From a virus (taxonomy: Duplodnaviria > Heunggongvirae > Uroviricota > Caudoviricetes), in the IMG/VR virus record IMGVR_UViG_2563366820_000001, positions 1 to 16,099 of that record: a DNA stretch of 16,099 nt; one strand, 5' to 3'. The translations under genes and the position numbers were made by a program. Each line of letters begins with the position of its first letter. Positions within the stretch are counted from its first letter, which is position 1. The notes beneath the pieces were generated by a model. The model saw only the letters and a program-made list of their open reading frames with translations. It ran no database searches and was not told the origin of the DNA. Shown here piece after piece: positions 1 through 6,659 of this stretch.

Positions 1-1254
1 ATGCTGGAACAAATGGGCATTGCCGCGAAGCAAGCCTCGTATAAATTAGCGCAACTCTCCAGCCGCGAAAAAAATCGCGTGCTGGAAAAAATCGCCGATG
101 AACTGGAAGCACAAAGCGAAATCATCCTCAACGCTAACGCCCAGGATGTTGCTGACGCACGTGCCAATGGCCTTAGCGAAGCGATGCTTGACCGTCTGGC
201 ACTGACGCCCGCACGGCTGAAAGGCATTGCCGACGATGTGCGCCAGGTGTGCAATCTCGCCGATCCGGTGGGGCAGGTGATTGATGGTGGTGTGCTGGAC
301 AGCGGCCTGCGTCTTGAGCGTCGTCGCGTACCGCTGGGGGTGATTGGCGTGATTTATGAAGCGCGCCCGAACGTGACGGTTGATGTTGCTTCCCTGTGCC
401 TGAAAACCGGTAACGCAGTGATCCTGCGTGGTGGCAAAGAAACCTGTCGCACTAACGCTGCAACGGTGGCGGTGATTCAGGACTCCCTGAAATCCTGCGG
501 CTTACCGGCGGGTGCCGTGCAGGCGATTGATAATCCTGACCGTGCGCTGGTAAGTGAAATGCTGCGTATGGATAAATACATCGACATGCTGATCCCGCGT
601 GGTGGCGCTGGCCTGCATAAGCTGTGCCGCGAACAGTCGACAATCCCGGTGATCACAGGCGGTATAGGCGTATGCCATATTTACGTTGATGAAAGTGCAG
701 AGATCGCTGAAGCCCTGAAAGTAATCGTCAACGCAAAAACTCAGCGCCCGAGCACGTGTAATACGGTAGAAACGTTGCTGGTGAATAAAAACATCGCAGA
801 TAGCTTCCTGCCTGTGTTAAGCAAACAGATGGCTGAAAGCGGTGTGACGTTACACGCCGATGCTACCGCACTGACGCAATTGCAGGCAGGTCCCGCGAAG
901 GTGGTTGCTGTTAAAGCTGAAGAGTATGACGATGAGTTTCTGTCCTTAGATTTGAACGTCAAAATCGTCAGCGATCTTGACGATGCCATCGCCCATATTC
1001 GTGAACACGGCACGCAACACTCCGATGCGATCCTGACCCGCGATATGCGCAACGCCCAGCGTTTTGTTAACGAAGTAGATTCCTCCGCTGTTTACGTTAA
1101 CGCTTCTACGCGTTTTACCGATGGCGGCCAGTTTGGTCTGGGTGCGGAAGTGGCGGTAAGCACACAAAAACTCCACGCGCGTGGCCCAATGGGGCTGGAA
1201 GCGCTGACCACTTACAAGTGGATCGGCATTGGTGATTACACCATTCGTGCGTAA
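1..1254 (+). CDS. proA: gamma-glutamyl phosphate reductase (glutamate-5-semialdehyde dehydrogenase), complete
   Basis: 417-aa ORF whose translation I recognise along its full length as E. coli ProA ([30 protein letters not shown] ... [14 protein letters not shown]); TAA stop at 1252..1254; followed by thrW as in the E. coli proBA-thrW locus. Confidence 0.96.
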
Positions 1255-1368
1255 ATAAAACCGGGTGATGCAAAAGTAGCCATTTGATTCACAAGGCCAT
1301 TGACGCATCGCCCGGTTAGTTTTAACCTTGTCCACCGTGATTCACATTCGTGAACATGTCCTTACAGG

Positions 1369-1444
1369 GCCGATATAGCTCAGTTGGTAGAGCAGCGCAT
1401 TCGTAATGCGAAGGTCGTAGGTTCGACTCCTATTATCGGCACCA
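1369..1444 (+). tRNA. thrW: tRNA-Thr (anticodon CGU)
   Basis: 76-nt sequence GCCGATATAGCTCAGTTGGTAGAGCAGCGCATTCGTAATGCGAAGGTCGTAGGTTCGACTCCTATTATCGGCACCA; 7-bp acceptor stem GCCGATA/TATCGGC, anticodon loop TTCGTAA, T-arm GGTTCGACTCC, 3' CCA. Confidence 0.95.
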
Positions 1445-1461
1445 TTCTAATGTCTCCCCAA

Positions 1462-1608
1462 GTCTACTCAAGTATTTAAAAAACTCTTATAATCCGCATG
1501 TTAGCGCCCCTTTTAGTCTTTTGACGTCTACTTAAGTACCCCAAAATCTACAGTCAATTGGGGGTACTTTTGGGGGTATTTGCTGTTCGGTTTAGTGGAG
1601 GTACCCCC
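1462..1608 (+). repeat. attL arm region with direct repeats GTCTACT(C/T)AAGTA (1462..1474, 1526..1538) and inverted GTACCCC/GGGGGTA motifs (1534..1546, 1560..1567, 1571..1579, 1601..1608); candidate integrase arm-type binding sites and int promoter
   Basis: Repeats read directly between the tRNA 3' end and the int start codon. Confidence 0.4.
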
Positions 1609-1610
1609 AA

Positions 1611-2825
1611 GTGAAACTCAATGCCCGTCAAATAGACACTGCCAAGCCAAAAGAGAAGGCTTACAAGCTGGCTGATGGTGGTGGTCTGTATCTCTTGGTA
1701 AAACCTAGTGGAGGAAAATATTGGCGCTTCAAGTATCGTGTAGCTGGTAAAGAGAAGCTGTTAGCACTAGGTGTGTATCCTGAAGTTACCTTGGCTGATG
1801 CTCGTGCAAAACGTGAAGAAGCTAAAAGGGGTATCGCTGGGGGTATCGATCCGATGGAAGCGAAACGAGAGGAAAAGATTGCCCGGGAAACGCAGTTAAA
1901 CAACACCTTCAAAGATATTGCCCTTGAGTGGCACAGCAGCAAATTAAAAAAATGGTCTGCTGGTTATGCTTCAGACATCCTCGAAGCCTTCAACAAAGAT
2001 GTGTTCCCTTACATTGGCAAAAAACCAATCGCCGAAATCAAACCACTTGAACTGCTGAATGTGCTGCGGCGCATCGAGGGGCGCGGTGCTACCGAAAAAG
2101 CCAAAAAAGTGAGGCAGCGATGCGGGGAAGTTTTCCGCTATGCAATTGTCACTGGACGTGCTGAGTATAACCCTGCACCGGATCTCACCAGCGCGATGCA
2201 AGGTCATGAATCTAATCATTATCCTTTCCTCACAGCCAAAGAATTACCTGATTTTTTCAAGGCATTGTCCAGTTACTCAGGAAGTGCATTGGTTGTTATG
2301 GCGGCTCGTCTACTGATTATCACCGGTTTGCGGACTGGCGAACTGCGCGGTGCATTATGGGATGAAATCGATCTCAACAAGGCTATCTGGGAGATACCAG
2401 CTTCACGGATGAAAATGCGTCGCCCTCATGTGGTGCCTTTGTCTGAGCAGGCTCTTTCGCTTATTGGGCAGATTAAAGAACTAACTGGCAATTATCCGCT
2501 TATGTTTCCCGGCCGTAATGATCCAAGGAAAACAATGAGCGAGGCTAGCATAAACCAAGTATTTAAACGCATCGGCTATAACGGAAAGGTTACTGGTCAT
2601 GGCTTCCGGCACACTATGAGCACCATTTTGCATGAGCAGGGCTATAACACCGCGTGGATAGAGACACAGCTTGCGCACGTCGATAAAAACTCAATTCGTG
2701 GCACATACAACCATGCGCAATATCTGGATGGGCGGCGGGAAATGCTTCAGTGGTACGCTGATTATATGGATTCGCTCGAGCATGGCGGAAATGTGGTGCA
2801 TGGTGAGTTCGGAAAATGCGGGTGA
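1611..2825 (+). CDS. int: P4-family tyrosine site-specific integrase
   Basis: 404-aa ORF with GTG start preceded by GGAGG (1597..1601); N-terminus MKLNARQIDTAKPKEKAYKLADGGGLYLLVKP typical of P4-like integrases; C-terminal catalytic region with conserved R (ITGLRTGELR), HGFRHT and Y (SIRGTYNHAQY); location directly downstream of a tRNA. Confidence 0.9.
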   Translation: MKLNARQIDTAKPKEKAYKLADGGGLYLLVKPSGGKYWRFKYRVAGKEKLLALGVYPEVTLADARAKREEAKRGIAGGIDPMEAKREEKIARETQLNNTFKDIALEWHSSKLKKWSAGYASDILEAFNKDVFPYIGKKPIAEIKPLELLNVLRRIEGRGATEKAKKVRQRCGEVFRYAIVTGRAEYNPAPDLTSAMQGHESNHYPFLTAKELPDFFKALSSYSGSALVVMAARLLIITGLRTGELRGALWDEIDLNKAIWEIPASRMKMRRPHVVPLSEQALSLIGQIKELTGNYPLMFPGRNDPRKTMSEASINQVFKRIGYNGKVTGHGFRHTMSTILHEQGYNTAWIETQLAHVDKNSIRGTYNHAQYLDGRREMLQWYADYMDSLEHGGNVVHGEFGKCG

Positions 2826-2896
2826 CTGGTTGAGTATACAGTAGTAGACTTTGAGCGATTAAGAAAAGGCTGTGTCTAGGGTCGCTCCCGAAAATC

Positions 2897-2951
2897 CGCA
2901 CACCTCTGCGGACTGGCACAGCCACTACGGTAGAGGGCGCAGAGGTGTGCG
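2897..2951 (+). promoter_or_regulatory. Perfect 14-bp inverted repeat CGCACACCTCTGCG (2897..2910) / CGCAGAGGTGTGCG (2938..2951), 27-nt spacer; second arm contains the AGAGGTG Shine-Dalgarno of the downstream ORF
   Basis: Reverse-complement identity verified base by base; the ATG at 2953 follows arm 2 directly. Confidence 0.5.
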
Positions 2952-2952
2952 T

Positions 2953-3723
2953 ATGGTTGATATTCATGCCGAATTAAATGAATATAAAAAAGAGTTTATT
3001 TATTTACGTGATTTTCTTGATGATGTATTTAAAGTTGTTGATGCTAATATTTCAGAAGTCATTACCTGGATACTCAAGAGAATAAATACAGTAAATCCAG
3101 GTATTACCCTGTACACAGTAAATTCATTAAATGAGGTGGAACTTTATTCTTCGGATCCGTTTGAGTGGAGATCTGATTTTAACTTTCTTTATGCAAAACT
3201 GGATACGGTTAGGGAGCGTGGTTGTTTACCTTGTGAGAGGGATGAGAGTGGTTTTCTGGTATCTGGTTATTGGGAAGATGCCGAATTTGAGGCAATGGGA
3301 TTCAGAAGAAATGAAATTTTCGAAATTTTCCCAGAAATCCTTGACGGGTTAATGAATCTGGAATGTGCTGACTCTTCTGAAAATAACGAGGCGCAAGGAA
3401 GCAATATTGAACATAAAGAGTTGCGTACAGATGATGATTTTTTATCCCGAATTGCAATGCTGGAAAAAGAAAATGAATCGTTAAGGGAGCGGGTAAATCA
3501 GTTAGAAAAGGAGCGCCCGATTTTGCTAAGGGCGTATCGTGATGATGACCCATTGTATCTGGCTATCGATATTAGAAACAGAGAGTGGGCCAATTACGAC
3601 CCAGAGAATGATCGCGCAACCAGGGGAAACCAGGGCGCGATTACTACTGAACTTGAAAAACGAGGTTTTACCTCCCGACAGGCCGCATCTATTGAGCTTG
3701 TCGCCTGTCCTATCAAACGATGA
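2953..3723 (+). CDS. Hypothetical protein (256 aa from ATG 2953; ORF track allows GTG at 2872), AT-rich N-terminal half, coiled-coil-like segment IAMLEKENESLRERVNQLEKER
   Basis: Long ORF with SD AGAGGTG 6 nt upstream of ATG 2953; codon composition markedly more AT-rich than the flanking int and alpA; no family recognised. Confidence 0.55.
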   Translation: MVDIHAELNEYKKEFIYLRDFLDDVFKVVDANISEVITWILKRINTVNPGITLYTVNSLNEVELYSSDPFEWRSDFNFLYAKLDTVRERGCLPCERDESGFLVSGYWEDAEFEAMGFRRNEIFEIFPEILDGLMNLECADSSENNEAQGSNIEHKELRTDDDFLSRIAMLEKENESLRERVNQLEKERPILLRAYRDDDPLYLAIDIRNREWANYDPENDRATRGNQGAITTELEKRGFTSRQAASIELVACPIKR

Positions 3724-3762
3724 AGCCTTACCCTAGTGATATCTCATGTTTTGTTCGCGTCT

Positions 3763-3841
3763 CACCCTAAGGGTAATCAGACCTCACCCTTAGGGTATTT
3801 TTGTATGCTTTCCCATCAATTTTACTATTACCCTTAGGGTA
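3763..3841 (+). promoter_or_regulatory. Three copies of a palindromic motif ACCCT(A/T)AGGGTA (3763..3776, 3785..3797, 3830..3841) upstream of alpA; candidate operator array
   Basis: Motifs read directly; ACCCTAAGGGT and ACCCTTAGGGT are reverse complements of each other. Confidence 0.5.
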
Positions 3842-3943
3842 AAAATATTCCCGATTACCATTAGGCATGAGGGTATGAAAATATTCGTTATTTCTGTGCC
3901 ATGATTACCTCGTCAAATTGAGTAGACGTTATGAGGTAAATAT

Positions 3944-4141
3944 ATGTCAAATACGCTTATTCGTTTAACGGAAGTTCAGCGTAGAACTGGATATAGCAAG
4001 GCATGGATTTATCGCCTTATGGGGCAAGGTAAATTTCCTGCATCAGTTAAAATTGGCTCGCGAGCGATTGCTTTCGTTGAGAGTGAAATTGACGAGTGGA
4101 TTAATCAGCGTATTGCGGAATCACGCGGAACAGCTACCTGA
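3944..4141 (+). CDS. alpA: AlpA-family phage transcriptional regulator / excisionase-like HTH protein
   Basis: 65-aa product MSNTLIRLTEVQRRTGYSKAWIYRLMGQGKFPASVKIGSRAIAFVESEIDEWINQR matches the AlpA pattern (L+EV...G.S+..IY.L...G.FP..VK.G.R...F.E.EI.EWI). Confidence 0.8.
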   Translation: MSNTLIRLTEVQRRTGYSKAWIYRLMGQGKFPASVKIGSRAIAFVESEIDEWINQRIAESRGTAT

Positions 4142-4219
4142 TTAAATGGCTACGGGGCCAGAAGTCCCAGCTATCCACCAGCAAATAAAAAGTAACTTAA
4201 TTCGATAGCAGGAGTTTTT

Positions 4220-5020
4220 ATGAAACTGCGAAAAACGCCCGTACAGGGGCAGGGATTCGTTCGGCCTGAAAACCAGAGCCAACAAAATTTCGGCGAAATT
4301 ATCCCGGTTATTTCCGGCGTTATTGGCGGGCGTGAAACCAATATTGTTAGCGCCAGAGCGTTGCATAAGGCGCTGGGTGTGAAGCGTGATTTCACAACCT
4401 GGATTAAAGGACGCATTGATGAGTACGGATTTAAAAAGGGCGTGGATTTTGAATTCGTAGAAAATTTGACCTCCCCCAATCCGGTGAGCGCAAAATCTCG
4501 CCAACGTGTAGAGCACGACTACCTGAGCACTATCAACATGGCGAAAGAACTGGCGATGGTCGAACGCACCGAACAGGGCCGCGCCGTTCGTCAGTACTTC
4601 ATCAAATGCGAGGAAGAGCTACACAAGGTTGCGCCTGTACGTTCCGCAGCGTTACGCCGGGAACTGAAAGCCCGTATCACAGTTGCCAGCTACTTTAAGC
4701 CAATGTGTGCCGCGCTGGAGGCGTACCGGGCTGAACTGGGTAAAAACACGCTCCAGCACCATTACACCACGGAAGCCAATATGCTGGCGCGTATCGTGCT
4801 GGGTGGCATGACTGCAAAACAGTGGGCGCAGGCGAACGGCATTACAGGCGAACCACGCGACCACATGAGCACGTTGCAGCTTGAGCACCTTTCTTACCTT
4901 GAGCAGAGCAATATCACGCTGATTGAGTTAGGCCAGGACTACCACCAGCGGAAGGCTGAATTAATTCGTCTTTCGCAGCGTTGGTTAGCCCGTCGCATGG
5001 AGGAAAACAGCCATGTGTAA
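4220..5020 (+). CDS. Phage antirepressor-like protein (AntA/AntB-type N-terminal domain)
   Basis: 266-aa ORF with AGGAG SD; segment ARALHKALGVKRDFTTWIKGRIDEYGFKKGVDFEF resembles the AntA/AntB antirepressor domain signature; called by eye, not by search. Confidence 0.55.
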   Translation: MKLRKTPVQGQGFVRPENQSQQNFGEIIPVISGVIGGRETNIVSARALHKALGVKRDFTTWIKGRIDEYGFKKGVDFEFVENLTSPNPVSAKSRQRVEHDYLSTINMAKELAMVERTEQGRAVRQYFIKCEEELHKVAPVRSAALRRELKARITVASYFKPMCAALEAYRAELGKNTLQHHYTTEANMLARIVLGGMTAKQWAQANGITGEPRDHMSTLQLEHLSYLEQSNITLIELGQDYHQRKAELIRLSQRWLARRMEENSHV

Positions 5021-5275
5021 CGCTCTGACCGTTACAAAAAGAGAAAGCGCCCCGTTGCCGGAGCGCCTTTGTGAACGAATTACCTGTAGCACCATATTGC
5101 TTACTGTCTACGAGGCAGATTATAGCGTTGTGGTCGCACAGAGTGAAGGCGCTGATCACCGTTACTACAGCACACCAGAAATGCGGAATATTTTGCTGCA
5201 AAATGTCGTTGGCCACGCTGTCCGGAAAGCAAAAAATTTTGCTGGTGGCGCGACTGATGCGATTTTTTCTGGGCG

Positions 5276-5449
5276 TCAGCCTTTTGGCTCGATACCGCGC
5301 TGTTGTAATTCTTTGCGGAGTATTCGTTTAATCCAAGTAGCTAATGAGGTGTCGCCGTCTGCCTTGGCTGCCTCCTCAAGTTGCGCTCTAAATTCTTCTG
5401 GTAGTCGCATTTGGTATGGTGGTGATCGTTTCTCTAATGGTGTTGACAT
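5276..5449 (-). CDS. Arc/MetJ-type ribbon-helix-helix DNA-binding protein (57 aa), not in the ORF track
   Basis: Minus-strand translation verified codon by codon: MSTPLEKRSPPYQMRLPEEFRAQLEEAAKADGDTSLATWIKRILRKELQQRGIEPKG; MRLPEEF...SLATWIKRIL is the Arc-like beta-strand/helix signature; SD-like AGGGG upstream; divergent from the + strand operon. Confidence 0.6.
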   Translation of the reverse strand: MSTPLEKRSPPYQMRLPEEFRAQLEEAAKADGDTSLATWIKRILRKELQQRGIEPKG

Positions 5450-5489
5450 GGTAATTACCCCTAATTACTATAGTTACATGGTAATTACC
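5446..5489 (+). promoter_or_regulatory. Two copies of ACATGGTAATTACC (5446..5459, 5476..5489) containing the perfect palindrome GGTAATTACC, 30 bp apart, in the divergent intergenic region; candidate operators for the Arc-like repressor
   Basis: Exact 14-nt repeats read from sequence; the first overlaps the Arc-like start codon. Confidence 0.5.
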
Positions 5490-5585
5490 ATTGTACTTAC
5501 CATTACGCAAAAAACAACGCCCCGCAGTGCTGGAACACATGCAGGGCGTCTAACCACCAACGATAGCAGAAGTATCGAGGTAGCT

Positions 5586-5789
5586 ATGAGAAATCATACC
5601 ACACACCCGCAAGGGCGGGACTCGCACAACCTGAATAAATACATCTGGCGTTTTATCGCCCTGAGCACGGCACAACCGCGCGTAATTCACATCGAGGCCA
5701 CCAGCGAACAGGAAGCCCGCCAGCAATCCCCGGCTGGCTGCGTGATGGTATTCGCTGCCCGTATTCGCCAGGAGGTGCACCATGCATAA
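5586..5789 (+). CDS. Hypothetical small protein (67 aa), first gene of the replication-module operon
   Basis: ATG at 5586 preceded by GAGG; in frame with the C-terminal part of the spurious 5013..5789 track ORF; stop overlaps the next start (ATGCATAA). Confidence 0.45.
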   Translation: MRNHTTHPQGRDSHNLNKYIWRFIALSTAQPRVIHIEATSEQEARQQSPAGCVMVFAARIRQEVHHA

Positions 5790-6147
5790 CCTGTCAATTT
5801 CTGACCTTAACAGCATTCAGTTTGACGAGAAATTTACCGGGCAGCTACTGGTCAATGTGGAGAACGGGCGCATAGTGCGTAATTACCACCTGCCGGATGG
5901 TGCAATTGCCGGAAGCGTTGAAGCATTGCTGGAAATGGCGGAACGTGCGCGACTGATTAAGCCGTCAACGTGCCATCACGATGATGATCTGCATTTTACC
6001 GGACGCATGGTGAGTCACTACGAAAACGGCGTTGAAGTATCCCGCGAACGGCTGCGTGATGATTGCTGTTTCGGCACACTGCCGGAATTTATCGAATTGC
6101 TGACCAGTTGCGGTTACCAGGTCATTCAGGGGGTGCATCATGGGTAA
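5782..6147 (+). CDS. Hypothetical protein (121 aa) with two internal copies of an FTG...NG... module
   Basis: Translationally coupled on both sides; internal repeat FTGQLLVNVENGRIV / FTGRMVSHYENGVEV. Confidence 0.55.
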   Translation: MHNLSISDLNSIQFDEKFTGQLLVNVENGRIVRNYHLPDGAIAGSVEALLEMAERARLIKPSTCHHDDDLHFTGRMVSHYENGVEVSRERLRDDCCFGTLPEFIELLTSCGYQVIQGVHHG

Positions 6148-6340
6148 TCAGCCAGCAACAATGACAATTACCCTGAATGTGCCAGATGATTTCACCGGAC
6201 GCGTACTGGTTTACCTGGATAAAGGGAACGTGAAATCACAATGCCGACTGCGAAATAATGAAATTGTAAGTACGGTAGAAGGCTTTTCTGAACTCTGTAT
6301 TCGTGCAGGAATAAAACCGGAACTGCTGACAGGAAAATAA
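6140..6340 (+). CDS. Hypothetical protein (66 aa), paralogous to the module in the upstream ORF
   Basis: FTGRVLVYLDKGNVKSQCRL...TVEGFSELCIRAGIKP aligns with FTGQLLVNVENGRIVRNYHL...SVEALLEMAERARLIKP of the upstream product; start overlaps the upstream stop. Confidence 0.5.
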   Translation: MGNQPATMTITLNVPDDFTGRVLVYLDKGNVKSQCRLRNNEIVSTVEGFSELCIRAGIKPELLTGK

Positions 6341-6344
6341 AACC

Positions 6345-6659
6345 ATGAAAAAGAAAAATTCTGGCTTTACTGCCAGCGGTCTCTCTCGGCCTGAAATTCG
6401 CCCCGGCGATATTTTCCGGGATAAATACGGCAGTCAGATAACGGTAAAAACGGTGAGTGCTTATCGTGTGACCTATATCCGCGAAGGGTATGCGCATCCC
6501 TGCGTGTCGTCACATATGCGCTTTGAAAGGGAATTCATCCTTGTAAGTAAAGCGCCACCAGCAGAATTAAGCGACATCGACAAAATCATGAGCGTCACGG
6601 GCGCGGAACGCATCAGGACAGTACGTGAAATTATTCGTGAGCGGGGAGGTAAGAAGTGA
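6345..6659 (+). CDS. Hypothetical protein (104 aa)
   Basis: ORF with ATG 4 nt after the previous stop; stop overlaps the primase GTG start (GTGA). Confidence 0.5.
   Translation: MKKKNSGFTASGLSRPEIRPGDIFRDKYGSQITVKTVSAYRVTYIREGYAHPCVSSHMRFEREFILVSKAPPAELSDIDKIMSVTGAERIRTVREIIRERGGKK

What the first reader, a model, noticed from the sequence alone, without database searches (positions are those of the whole stretch)
5782..6340. Three copies of a roughly 50-aa FTG...NG...(E)xF.EL module across two adjacent small genes
The 121-aa product contains two copies (FTGQLLVNVENGRIV...SVEALLEMAERARLIKP and FTGRMVSHYENGVEV...TLPEFIELLTSCG) and the overlapping 66-aa product a third (FTGRVLVYLDKGNVK...TVEGFSELCIRAGIKP). 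This points to tandem duplication and divergence of a small domain I do not recognise.
Basis: seen in the sequence. Interest (0 to 1): 0.4.

Follow-up and report, generated by a model that had tools for sequence, protein, structure and literature searches.

The report
Triple antirepressor module in a phage satellite
The three repeated ~50-residue modules are real copies of the small antirepressor domain known from Salmonella FsoA/GfoA and E. coli Rem, which switch off prophage repressors; here they sit in a phage satellite at the slot where satellite P4 keeps its helper-derepression gene, so the satellite may wake up resident helper prophages.

Summary
Observation confirmed. Gene A (5782-6147, 121 aa) holds two modules and the overlapping gene B (6140-6340, 66 aa) holds one. 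Pairwise scores lie 8.6-10.2 SD above shuffles (0/2000). A profile built only from distant relatives hits each module separately (E 3e-15, 1.5e-14, 4.5e-26), and there is no fourth copy in the window.

The domain is recognisable. The module profile hits Fels-1 FsoA at E 6e-27; I confirmed the ORF's identity from the published primers. It also matches a GfoA-type ortholog (hhalign 97%), E. coli K-12 Rem (95%) and, weakly, GftA. Pfam PF27490 "Rem" is precomputed on close homologs. All four named proteins are experimentally shown antirepressors of short DicA/Gifsy-type prophage repressors.

The genes lie in a PICI-type satellite at tRNA-Thr, in the early operon Icd-like > A > B > DUF4222 > primase. 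This is the slot of P4's unrelated helper-derepression gene epsilon.

The duplication is old. N modules group with N modules, and C with C, across distant two-module proteins. Copy number in related satellites is 1, 2 or 3.

Best reading, inferred and untested: satellite-borne antirepressors that inactivate repressors of co-resident lambdoid prophages. The two-module protein would act as a covalent pseudo-dimer. Public annotation calls them all "hypothetical protein".

The parts
5782..6147 (+). Gene A, 121 aa: a two-module (tandem) Rem/FsoA-like protein. The ATG is preceded by AGGAGGTG and overlaps the Icd-like gene's stop by 8 nt.
5833..5964 (+). Module A1 core (residues 18-61, FTGQLLVNVENGRIV...ARLIKP)
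   Evidence: HMM from distant members: 50.2 bits, i-E 3.3e-15. Its nearest relatives are the N modules of other two-module proteins.
5995..6114 (+). Module A2 core (residues 72-111, FTGRMVSHYENGVEV...LTSCG)
   Evidence: 48.1 bits, i-E 1.5e-14. Its nearest relatives are C modules (P0138_C, P0137_C).
6140..6340 (+). Gene B, 66 aa: a single-module Rem/FsoA-like protein (module core 6191-6319). It overlaps A by 8 nt (ATGGGTAA).
   Evidence: 85.0 bits, i-E 4.5e-26. AlphaFold2 model pLDDT 89.6: beta-hairpin 21-37, helix 46-55, short helix 60-64. tblastn hits Fels-1 FsoA directly, 33% identity, E 7e-3.
5586..5789 (+). Icd-like small protein, first gene of the early operon. It is the counterpart of the P4 'cI/kil' ORF family.
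   Evidence: NCBIfam NF033153, E 5.8e-20; phrog_6196, E 3e-45
5443..5503 (+). Promoter-like site (TTGACA-17-TACTAT) overlapped by three operator-like palindromes TGGTAATTACCA. This is the presumed control region of the early operon that carries A and B.
   Evidence: consensus and repeat evidence only
5276..5449 (-). Divergent 57-aa Arc/YlcI-YnfO-like DNA-binding protein, the presumed satellite repressor
   Evidence: Pfam Arc E 0.0057 and NCBIfam YlcI_YnfO_N E 0.001, both below their cut-offs; phrog_228 Arc-like repressor E 3e-7
6345..6659 (+). DUF4222 protein. It follows the module gene(s) directly in 9 of 11 distinct satellite loci examined; one gene intervenes in L018, and it was not seen in L005/L006.
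   Evidence: Pfam PF13973, E 1.1e-17; synteny
6656..8407 (+). D5_N/DUF5906/Pox_D5 primase-helicase of the satellite
1369..4141 (+). Left end of the satellite: tRNA-Thr attachment site (1369-1444), integrase (1611-2825), a 283-aa ORF, AlpA (3944-4141). AntA-family protein follows at 4220-5020.

Best explanation
Genes A and B encode members of the small-antirepressor family that includes Salmonella FsoA (Fels-1), GfoA/GfhA/GftA (Gifsy phages) and E. coli Rem (Qin). A is a tandem two-module form and B is a single-module form. They are carried by a PICI-type phage satellite integrated at tRNA-Thr next to proA.

They are translationally coupled within the satellite's early operon: promoter with operators, then Icd-like, A, B, DUF4222 and primase. 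When that operon is switched on, the modules are proposed to bind short, non-cleavable DicA/GfoR/GtgR-type repressors of co-resident lambdoid prophages and take them off their operators. That would induce a potential helper. The closest parallels are FsoA, which acts in trans on Gifsy-2, and the unrelated P4 epsilon, which acts on the P2 repressor.

Published Gifsy antirepressors appear to bind repressor dimers as dimers. The two-module protein A would therefore act as a covalent pseudo-dimer, with its N and C modules specialised, and three diverged modules would widen the range of repressors that are covered.

Shown here: the repeat, the family membership, the operon position and the conservation of the architecture. 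Inferred: the binding to repressors, the identity of the targets and the pseudo-dimer idea.
For: Homology.
- The module profile (61 sequences) hits Fels-1 ORF STM0898.2n at E 6.4e-27, 89.9 bits, over its full length.
- The published primers for araBAD::fsoA (ATGAACTCACAGCAAATGATGA = MNSQQMM) and for fsoA::3xFLAG (...EAGIRFEEISNVG) match this ORF's start and end, so it is FsoA.
- A GfoA-type ortholog lies downstream of dinI in phage SEN34. Its C-terminus RRLGYRVTPPSD is the sequence in the gfoA tagging primer. It gives hhalign 97.0%, E 7.8e-11 over 52 columns.
- E. coli K-12 Rem gives hhalign 95.3%, E 2.2e-8 and hmmsearch 1.8e-8.
- GftA aligns in register but weakly (24.8%, E 8e-4).
- Pfam PF27490 'Rem' is precomputed on A homologs P0022 and P0023 (about 81-85% identical to A) and on distant members.

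Function of the relatives (literature).
- GfoA, GftA and FsoA bind Gifsy repressors and release them from DNA. FsoA sits in the Fels-1 early-left operon and acts in trans on Gifsy-2. The complexes look like A2B2 (PMC3121763).
- Rem derepresses the DicA-controlled dicBp promoter 165-fold (PMC10448788).

Context.
- The order int-alpA-...-module(s)-DUF4222-primase is conserved in the window, in E. coli and E. ruysiae, in loci L007/L008 (source organism not established) and in metagenomic satellites.
- In P4, the helper-derepression gene epsilon occupies the same slot after the cI/Icd-like ORF, with the same 8-nt overlaps.
- No DicA-like repressor was seen among the window products scanned, so any target would lie elsewhere.

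Architecture. N modules cluster with N and C with C across distant two-module proteins, which argues for specialised halves.
Against: - Nothing here tests binding or derepression.
- Family membership does not fix the target, and the specificity of known members is narrow and idiosyncratic.
- Unlike GfoA and GftA there is no LexA box: no perfect CTGT-N8-ACAG anywhere, and one-mismatch hits occur at chance level with none near the promoter.
- From my own knowledge, not checked here: helpers described for E. coli PICIs include phages with cleavable CI-type repressors, and PICIs are normally described as being induced by their helper rather than inducing it. In the one related proA-site PICI studied, EcCIMP1, deleting the island did not change helper titre or CI expression (PMC11773190). 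I did not check whether that island carries these genes.
- The tight linkage to DUF4222-primase and one Zn_ribbon_DnaG+module fusion could point to a replication role instead.
- The two-module AlphaFold model was poor (pLDDT 52.7), so the pseudo-dimer packing is not supported structurally.
Confidence: 0.55

Rival explanations
1. The modules are antirepressors, but their target is the satellite's own repressor (the divergent Arc/YlcI-like protein) or the repressors of competing satellites. They would give positive feedback on satellite induction rather than induce a helper.
For: They lie immediately downstream of the operator-bearing promoter and of the divergent small DNA-binding gene. The family is built for protein-protein inactivation of repressors (PMC3121763).
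Against: Known targets of the family are HTH (XRE) repressors of the DicA/GfoR type, not Arc/ribbon-helix-helix proteins (PMC3121763; PMC10448788). An antirepressor placed inside the operon it would derepress cannot start induction. FsoA likewise plays no apparent role in inducing its own phage.
Confidence: 0.12
2. The modules are accessory or regulatory subunits of the satellite replication machinery (the role Cnr plays for the P4 alpha protein) and act on the DUF4222-primase proteins.
For: Module gene(s), DUF4222 and primase are adjacent in nearly all satellite loci sampled. One family member is fused to a DnaG-type zinc ribbon and was found in two samples.
Against: Characterised relatives (FsoA, GfoA, Rem) work in phages and prophages that lack this primase. 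Members also occur fused to Bro-N next to lysis genes. The adjacency is explained just as well by the fixed order of a P4-like early operon. DUF4222 is itself sometimes fused to the primase, whereas the module never is in the loci seen.
Confidence: 0.1
3. The modules are small protein-binding inhibitors aimed at something other than repressors, for example helper-phage interference or an anti-defence function. The fold would have been re-used for new partners.
For: The genes sit in the satellite zone that a published survey calls dynamic (PMC10111431). Cassette exchange occurs at conserved junctions, and there are many natural chimeras. The three modules are strongly diverged (24-27% identity).
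Against: No member of the family is known with such a role. The conserved FTG...G...L...E-L...G core is shared with the proven antirepressors.
Confidence: 0.12
4. The similarity is chance or compositional, and the ORFs are not real genes.
For: The ORFs are short, and public annotation gives only 'hypothetical protein'.
Against: z scores are 8.6-10.2 with 0/2000 shuffles. Independent-profile E-values are 1e-14 to 1e-26. There are 102 clusters at 50% identity with E<=1e-3, a few of them long repetitive proteins that look spurious. The single-module model has pLDDT 89.6. Shine-Dalgarno sequences and coupled starts are conserved.
Confidence: 0.01

Closest known systems
FsoA, antirepressor of Salmonella prophage Fels-1 (Lemire, Figueroa-Bossi & Bossi 2011, PMC3121763)
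   Same: Clear sequence homolog of all three modules (profile E 6.4e-27; B alone 33% identical). It is a small single-domain protein. It is encoded in an early operon under the element's own repressor, not under LexA. It acts in trans on another element's repressor (Gifsy-2 GtgR).
   Different: FsoA is phage-borne and has a single module. Here the carrier is a satellite, with a two-module protein plus a single-module paralog placed just upstream of DUF4222-primase. The targets are unknown.
Rem of E. coli K-12 cryptic prophage Qin (Ragunathan et al. 2023, PMC10448788); Pfam PF27490 'Rem'
   Same: Homologous module (hhalign 95.3%, E 2.2e-8). PF27490 is precomputed on close homologs of A. Rem is shown to relieve DicA repression.
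   Different: Rem is 83 aa, made of a partial extra beta-hairpin plus one full module (about 1.5 modules), and it lies in a lambdoid prophage next to hokD/relBE. PF27490 is absent from the Pfam copy I could scan, so the window proteins themselves were not scored against it.
GfoA/GfhA/GftA, LexA-controlled antirepressors of Gifsy-1, -3 and -2
   Same: Same superfamily: a GfoA-type ortholog gives hhalign 97.0%, and GftA gives a weak in-register match. They bind repressor dimers, apparently as dimers.
   Different: They lie downstream of dinI under a LexA box. No LexA box is present here. They are more distant in sequence than FsoA.
P4 epsilon (helper derepression protein)
   Same: Same position in a satellite early operon, directly after the cI/Icd-like ORF and upstream of the primase, with the same 8-nt overlapping gene junctions. 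Epsilon is known to inactivate the helper (P2 C) repressor, which is the function proposed here.
   Different: No detectable homology (hhalign probability 0.08%). The resemblance is of position and proposed function only.

Membership tests
FsoA/GfoA/Rem small antirepressors (Pfam PF27490 'Rem') | Significant sequence/profile similarity to experimentally characterised members | tested here: met
   FsoA E 6.4e-27 (identity of the ORF confirmed from published primers). GfoA-type ortholog hhalign 97.0%, E 7.8e-11. Rem 95.3%, E 2.2e-8. GftA only 24.8%, E 8e-4.
FsoA/GfoA/Rem small antirepressors (Pfam PF27490 'Rem') | Match to the curated Pfam model PF27490 above its threshold | tested here: inconclusive
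   The local Pfam copy lacks PF27490, so A and B gave no family. Precomputed PF27490 hits exist on P0022/P0023 (about 81-85% identical to A) and, marked weak or faint, on distant relatives.
FsoA/GfoA/Rem small antirepressors (Pfam PF27490 'Rem') | Small single-domain protein of about 65-85 aa | tested here: met
   B (66 aa) fits. A (121 aa) is a tandem two-domain variant. Two-module forms recur in distant satellites.
FsoA/GfoA/Rem small antirepressors (Pfam PF27490 'Rem') | Binds a short non-cleavable DicA/GfoR-type repressor and releases it from its operator | not testable with these tools
   Needs pull-down or reporter assays, or at least a complex prediction.
FsoA/GfoA/Rem small antirepressors (Pfam PF27490 'Rem') | Expression tied to an induction signal: a LexA box (GfoA/GftA), or the early operon of an inducible element (FsoA) | tested here: met
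   There is no LexA box, so the GfoA/GftA mode is not met. The FsoA mode is met: A and B lie in the satellite early operon behind an operator-bearing promoter-like site.
P4 epsilon (helper derepression protein) | Sequence homology to epsilon | tested here: not met
   hhalign probability 0.08%, and hmmsearch finds no hit on epsilon.
P4 epsilon (helper derepression protein) | Position in the satellite early operon between the cI/Icd-like ORF and the primase, with translational coupling | tested here: met
   P4 annotation and overlaps compared with the window junctions.
Gram-negative PICI-type satellite (the carrier element) | Integrase, AlpA and primase in one direction at a tRNA site, no tail or lysis genes, and a packaging-redirection region | tested here: met
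   tRNA-Thr, integrase, AlpA, D5-type primase, PerC, ProQ, DUF2213 and a TerS-like HTH protein. The right end of the island was not mapped.

The most novel reading that the evidence does not exclude
PICI-type satellites of Escherichia and its relatives carry arrays of FsoA/Rem-type antirepressor modules, including covalently fused N+C pseudo-dimers, as a non-homologous replacement for P4 epsilon. On entering or waking in a cell, the satellite would actively induce resident lambdoid or cryptic prophages that are controlled by DicA/Gifsy-type repressors. Each diverged module would cover a different immunity type, and cassette exchange at the conserved 8-nt gene junctions would retune the helper range.
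Probability: 0.35. Interest if true: 0.65.

Novelty: new variant of a known kind. Interest (0 to 1): 0.5.

Why it matters
These genes are present in about 7% of complete E. coli genomes (394 of 5426), including O104:H4 and O157:H7 strains, and every sampled database record for them reads "hypothetical protein". Linking them to proven antirepressors gives them a directly testable function.

If satellites carry their own prophage-inducing antirepressors, PICIs would not merely wait for a helper. They could trigger induction of resident prophages, including Shiga-toxin or other lambdoid prophages with short repressors, and of cryptic elements such as Qin (the dicBF cell-division inhibitors). That bears on prophage cross-talk, on the spread of virulence genes, and on how satellites find helpers. 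The conserved two-module form also offers a natural single-chain version of an antirepressor dimer for structural work.

Tried and rejected
- Pfam and NCBIfam scans of A and B gave nothing useful. The only hit was DUF7330 at E 0.13.
- PDB sequence searches gave only chance hits: designed armadillo repeats and RNF4, short and below significance.
- The AlphaFold2 model of the 121-aa protein, made with 20 close homologs, was poor (pLDDT 52.7). I used it only for secondary structure.
- tblastn of A against phage genomes found no match.
With the close alignment it returned only one species genome, E. ruysiae.
- P4 epsilon, ORF151 and ORF106 were tested for homology and rejected.
- A LexA-box search was negative.
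- An Rfam search for a P4-type CI/C4/isrK immunity RNA near the operon start was negative. The only hit was a weak SymR-like match.
- Literature searches found no paper that links FsoA/GfoA/Rem to satellites.
- The long repetitive hits in the representative search (for example P0140, 876 aa, 13 short stretches) look like spurious low-complexity matches and were ignored.

Full report
**1. The observation**

Two co-directional genes occupy the flagged region. A is 5782-6147 (121 aa). B is 6140-6340 (66 aa) and overlaps A by 8 nt.

I split A at residue 63 and compared the halves with each other and with B. Local Smith-Waterman scores are 52, 64 and 54, against about 20 +/- 4 for 2000 shuffles each. 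That gives z = 8.6-10.2, and no shuffle reaches the observed score. PHROG family phrog_340 matches A in two stretches and B in one.

The strongest control uses a profile built from 51 distant family members only, with no window sequence and none of the close E. coli relatives. It scores A1 at 50.2 bits, A2 at 48.1 bits and B at 85.0 bits (i-E 3e-15, 1.5e-14, 4.5e-26). No other six-frame ORF in the window scores better than E 1.5. The modules share no DNA-level repeat and only 24-27% protein identity.

**2. What the domain is**

The local Pfam and NCBIfam copies gave nothing. Searches of the large protein collections found close relatives, almost all from Escherichia with a few from Salmonella. 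A full HMMER scan of 1.84 billion representatives with a module profile found 102 clusters at E <= 1e-3. Most are 60-90-aa single-module proteins, and some have two modules.

Two close homologs of A carried a precomputed Pfam hit, PF27490. Gene-context tables name that family "Rem". Rem is a gene of the E. coli K-12 cryptic prophage Qin. Its product aligns with the module profile at hhalign 95.3%, E 2.2e-8. Ragunathan et al. 2023 showed that Rem is an antirepressor of DicA, giving 165-fold derepression of dicBp. They found it by iterated BLAST searches that started from the Salmonella antirepressors GfoA and FsoA (PMC10448788).

I then searched all ORFs of Gifsy-1, Gifsy-2, the left arm of Fels-1 and the Qin region with the module profile.
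- The top hit is a 78-aa Fels-1 ORF (STM0898.2n) at E 6.4e-27 over its full length.
- The primers in Table S1 of Lemire et al. 2011 encode this ORF's first residues (MNSQQMM) and its C-terminus (EAGIRFEEIS...). This proves that the ORF is FsoA.
- The gfoA tagging primer encodes ...RRLGYRVTPPSDI. An ortholog with that C-terminus lies downstream of dinI in phage SEN34 and matches the profile at hhalign 97.0%, E 7.8e-11.
- GftA aligns in register but weakly.

The "unrecognised" domain is therefore the Gifsy/Fels/Qin small-antirepressor domain. Lemire et al. showed that these proteins bind short, non-cleavable repressors (GfoR, GfhR, GtgR; DicA and RacR belong to the same repressor group) and remove them from DNA. 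They also reported that the complexes behave as A2B2, and that FsoA is expressed from the Fels-1 early-left operon and acts in trans on Gifsy-2 (PMC3121763).

**3. Structure**

With the 61-sequence module alignment, AlphaFold2 gives a confident model of B (pLDDT 89.6). It shows an extended N-terminal segment, a beta-hairpin carrying the FTG...NG motif (residues 21-37), a helix carrying the ExF.EL motif (46-55) and a short C-terminal helix. The two-module protein modelled poorly (pLDDT 52.7) but repeats the same strand-strand-strand-helix pattern twice. No solved or predicted viral structure resembles the module, so the fold has no characterised structural relative.

**4. Where the genes sit**

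The window runs as follows:
- proA, then tRNA-Thr, integrase, a 283-aa ORF, AlpA and an AntA-family protein
- a divergent 57-aa Arc/YlcI-like gene
- the early operon: Icd-like, A, B, DUF4222, and a D5-type primase-helicase
- ProQ/FinO-like, PerC, DUF2213 and a TerS-like HTH protein

This is the layout of a Gram-negative PICI-type satellite. A related island at the same proA site, EcCIMP1, has been shown to be a functional PICI (PMC11773190).

Between the Arc-like gene and the Icd-like gene lies a promoter-like site overlapped by three TGGTAATTACCA palindromes. There is no LexA box.

Every junction from the Icd-like gene through B's start is an 8-nt overlap (ATGnnTAA) preceded by GGAGGTG or GGGGGTG, which indicates translational coupling.

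The order module gene(s), DUF4222, primase recurs widely. It is seen in E. coli and E. ruysiae islands, in loci L007/L008, whose source organism I did not establish, and in several metagenomic satellites.

In P4 the same slot is held by epsilon, the helper-derepression protein: directly after the cI/Icd-like ORF, with 8-nt overlaps, upstream of the primase. Epsilon is not homologous to the module (hhalign 0.08%).

**5. Copy number and evolution**

A profile scan of all fetched loci gives:
- one module in L005-L009 and L019
- two modules in one chain in L010, L011, L017 and L018
- three modules (2+1) in the window and L001-L004

In E. coli relatives, unrelated 74-aa and 77-aa cassettes are inserted exactly at the conserved junctions.

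In a pairwise score matrix, the N module of A is closest to a single-module N-type protein (score 151) and to the N modules of distant two-module proteins (P0137_N 81, P0138_N 77), against 38 for its own C module. The C module is closest to P0138_C (105) and also scores highly with P0137_C (80). B groups with single-module proteins. So the two-module architecture is old and its halves are specialised.

Public data also hold many internal-deletion and chimeric forms. Examples are the A leader joined to module A2 (P0049), the A leader joined to module B (P0064), and "1.5-module" forms (P0033, P0036, P0040). K-12 Rem itself is a partial hairpin plus one full module.

Other fusions exist: Bro-N+module next to lysis genes, AntA+module, and Zn_ribbon_DnaG+module.

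**6. Mechanism**

Shown: A and B are members of a family whose four studied members are all antirepressors. They are co-expressed with the satellite's early and replication genes. No DicA-type repressor was seen among the window products I scanned.

Inferred: when the early operon is on, the modules bind repressors of co-resident lambdoid or cryptic prophages and induce them, which supplies a helper. This is the FsoA logic carried out in the P4-epsilon position. Because the studied antirepressors seem to work as dimers on repressor dimers, the tandem protein A may be a single-chain pseudo-dimer, and three diverged modules may widen the target range.

I put this at about 0.55. The rivals are action on the satellite's own repressor, a replication-accessory role, another protein target, and chance (effectively excluded).

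Against the favoured reading:
- There is no functional test here.
- There is no LexA control.
- PICIs are usually described as being induced by their helpers.
- EcCIMP1 deletion had no effect on its helper's titre. I did not check whether that island carries these genes.

**7. Novelty**

The exact proteins are in public databases from Escherichia sp. E3659 and other Escherichia. Every sampled record is named "hypothetical protein" or "prophage protein". A/B-like DNA occurs in 394 of 5426 complete E. coli genomes.

I found no paper that links this antirepressor family to satellites, to tandem-module forms or to the epsilon slot. The literature library is incomplete, so this is absence of evidence only.

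I rate it a new variant of a known kind: a known antirepressor domain in a new architecture and a new carrier, with a specific and testable implication for how satellites deal with resident prophages.

Noticed in passing
window 5443-5503: Three operator-like palindromes TGGTAATTACCA (5446-5459, 5476-5491, 5493-5503; the first two 30 bp apart) overlap a promoter-like TTGACA-17-TACTAT. They lie between the divergent Arc/YlcI-like gene and the early operon, and are probably the satellite's immunity switch.
   Followed up: partly
window 5513-5585 (- strand): A minus-strand terminator-like hairpin (5538-5517, followed by a T run) and a weak SymR-like Rfam match (24 bits, E 0.056, far below gathering) lie opposite the start of the Icd-like gene. 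This could be a cis-antisense RNA controlling the operon. No C4/isrK (P4 CI-type) RNA was found.
   Followed up: partly
window 2869-2936 (+): Rfam int-alpA RNA (RF02996) at 48.4 bits, above its gathering score. It overlaps the start of the 283-aa ORF (2872-3723), which has no family match, so that ORF call may be wrong at its 5' end.
   Followed up: no
window 5770-5789 and 6128-6147; L002 3130-3950; L020 (P4) 7888-8175: The gene junctions in the small-gene part of the early operon (Icd-like through the start of B) are 8-nt overlaps ATGnnTAA preceded by GGAGGTG. This forces similar C-terminal tails (VHHA, VHHG, VSHA, VEHV) on unrelated proteins. In E. coli relatives, unrelated 74-aa and 77-aa cassettes are inserted exactly at these junctions, and P4 has the same geometry around epsilon. 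The junctions look like cassette-exchange points.
   Followed up: partly
L012:4652-4903 (-), E. coli K-12 rem: Rem contains a partial extra beta-hairpin (GLYAVCVENGNLVSHYRI) in front of its full module. This resembles the '1.5-module' deletion forms of A found in E. coli (P0033, P0036, P0040) and suggests that Rem derives from a two-module ancestor.
   Followed up: partly
L009:262-816; L005:412-816; L016:3514-4077 (-): The module also occurs fused to other domains. Bro-N+module lies just upstream of holin/lysozyme genes. Zn_ribbon_DnaG+module lies in a satellite early operon and was seen in two samples. Gifsy-1 STM2616 has a weak C-terminal match (E 0.0028).
   Followed up: partly
L008:6211-7854: DUF4222 is fused in frame to the DUF927 primase in one locus but is a separate gene in its near-identical neighbour L007. 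DUF4222 is therefore probably an N-terminal accessory part of the satellite primase.
   Followed up: no
L018:1-2302 and 2565-8734: A module-bearing satellite lies directly next to P2-like tail genes and ogr (gpU, gpD, Ogr_Delta). This could be a satellite integrated beside, or within the end of, a P2-type prophage.
   Followed up: no
window 1-1500: proA/tRNA-Thr is at most 96.6% identical to any of 5426 complete E. coli genomes, and the exact A and B proteins are recorded from Escherichia sp. E3659. The window probably comes from a cryptic Escherichia clade rather than from E. coli proper.
   Followed up: partly
window 9954-10789 and 11195-13055: The island also encodes ProQ/FinO-like and PerC-like proteins, two ORFs matching one PHROG (phrog_6216; one of them also matches DUF2213), and a 174-aa protein with a TerS-like HTH N-terminus that may redirect packaging. 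The right end of the island was not mapped.
   Followed up: no
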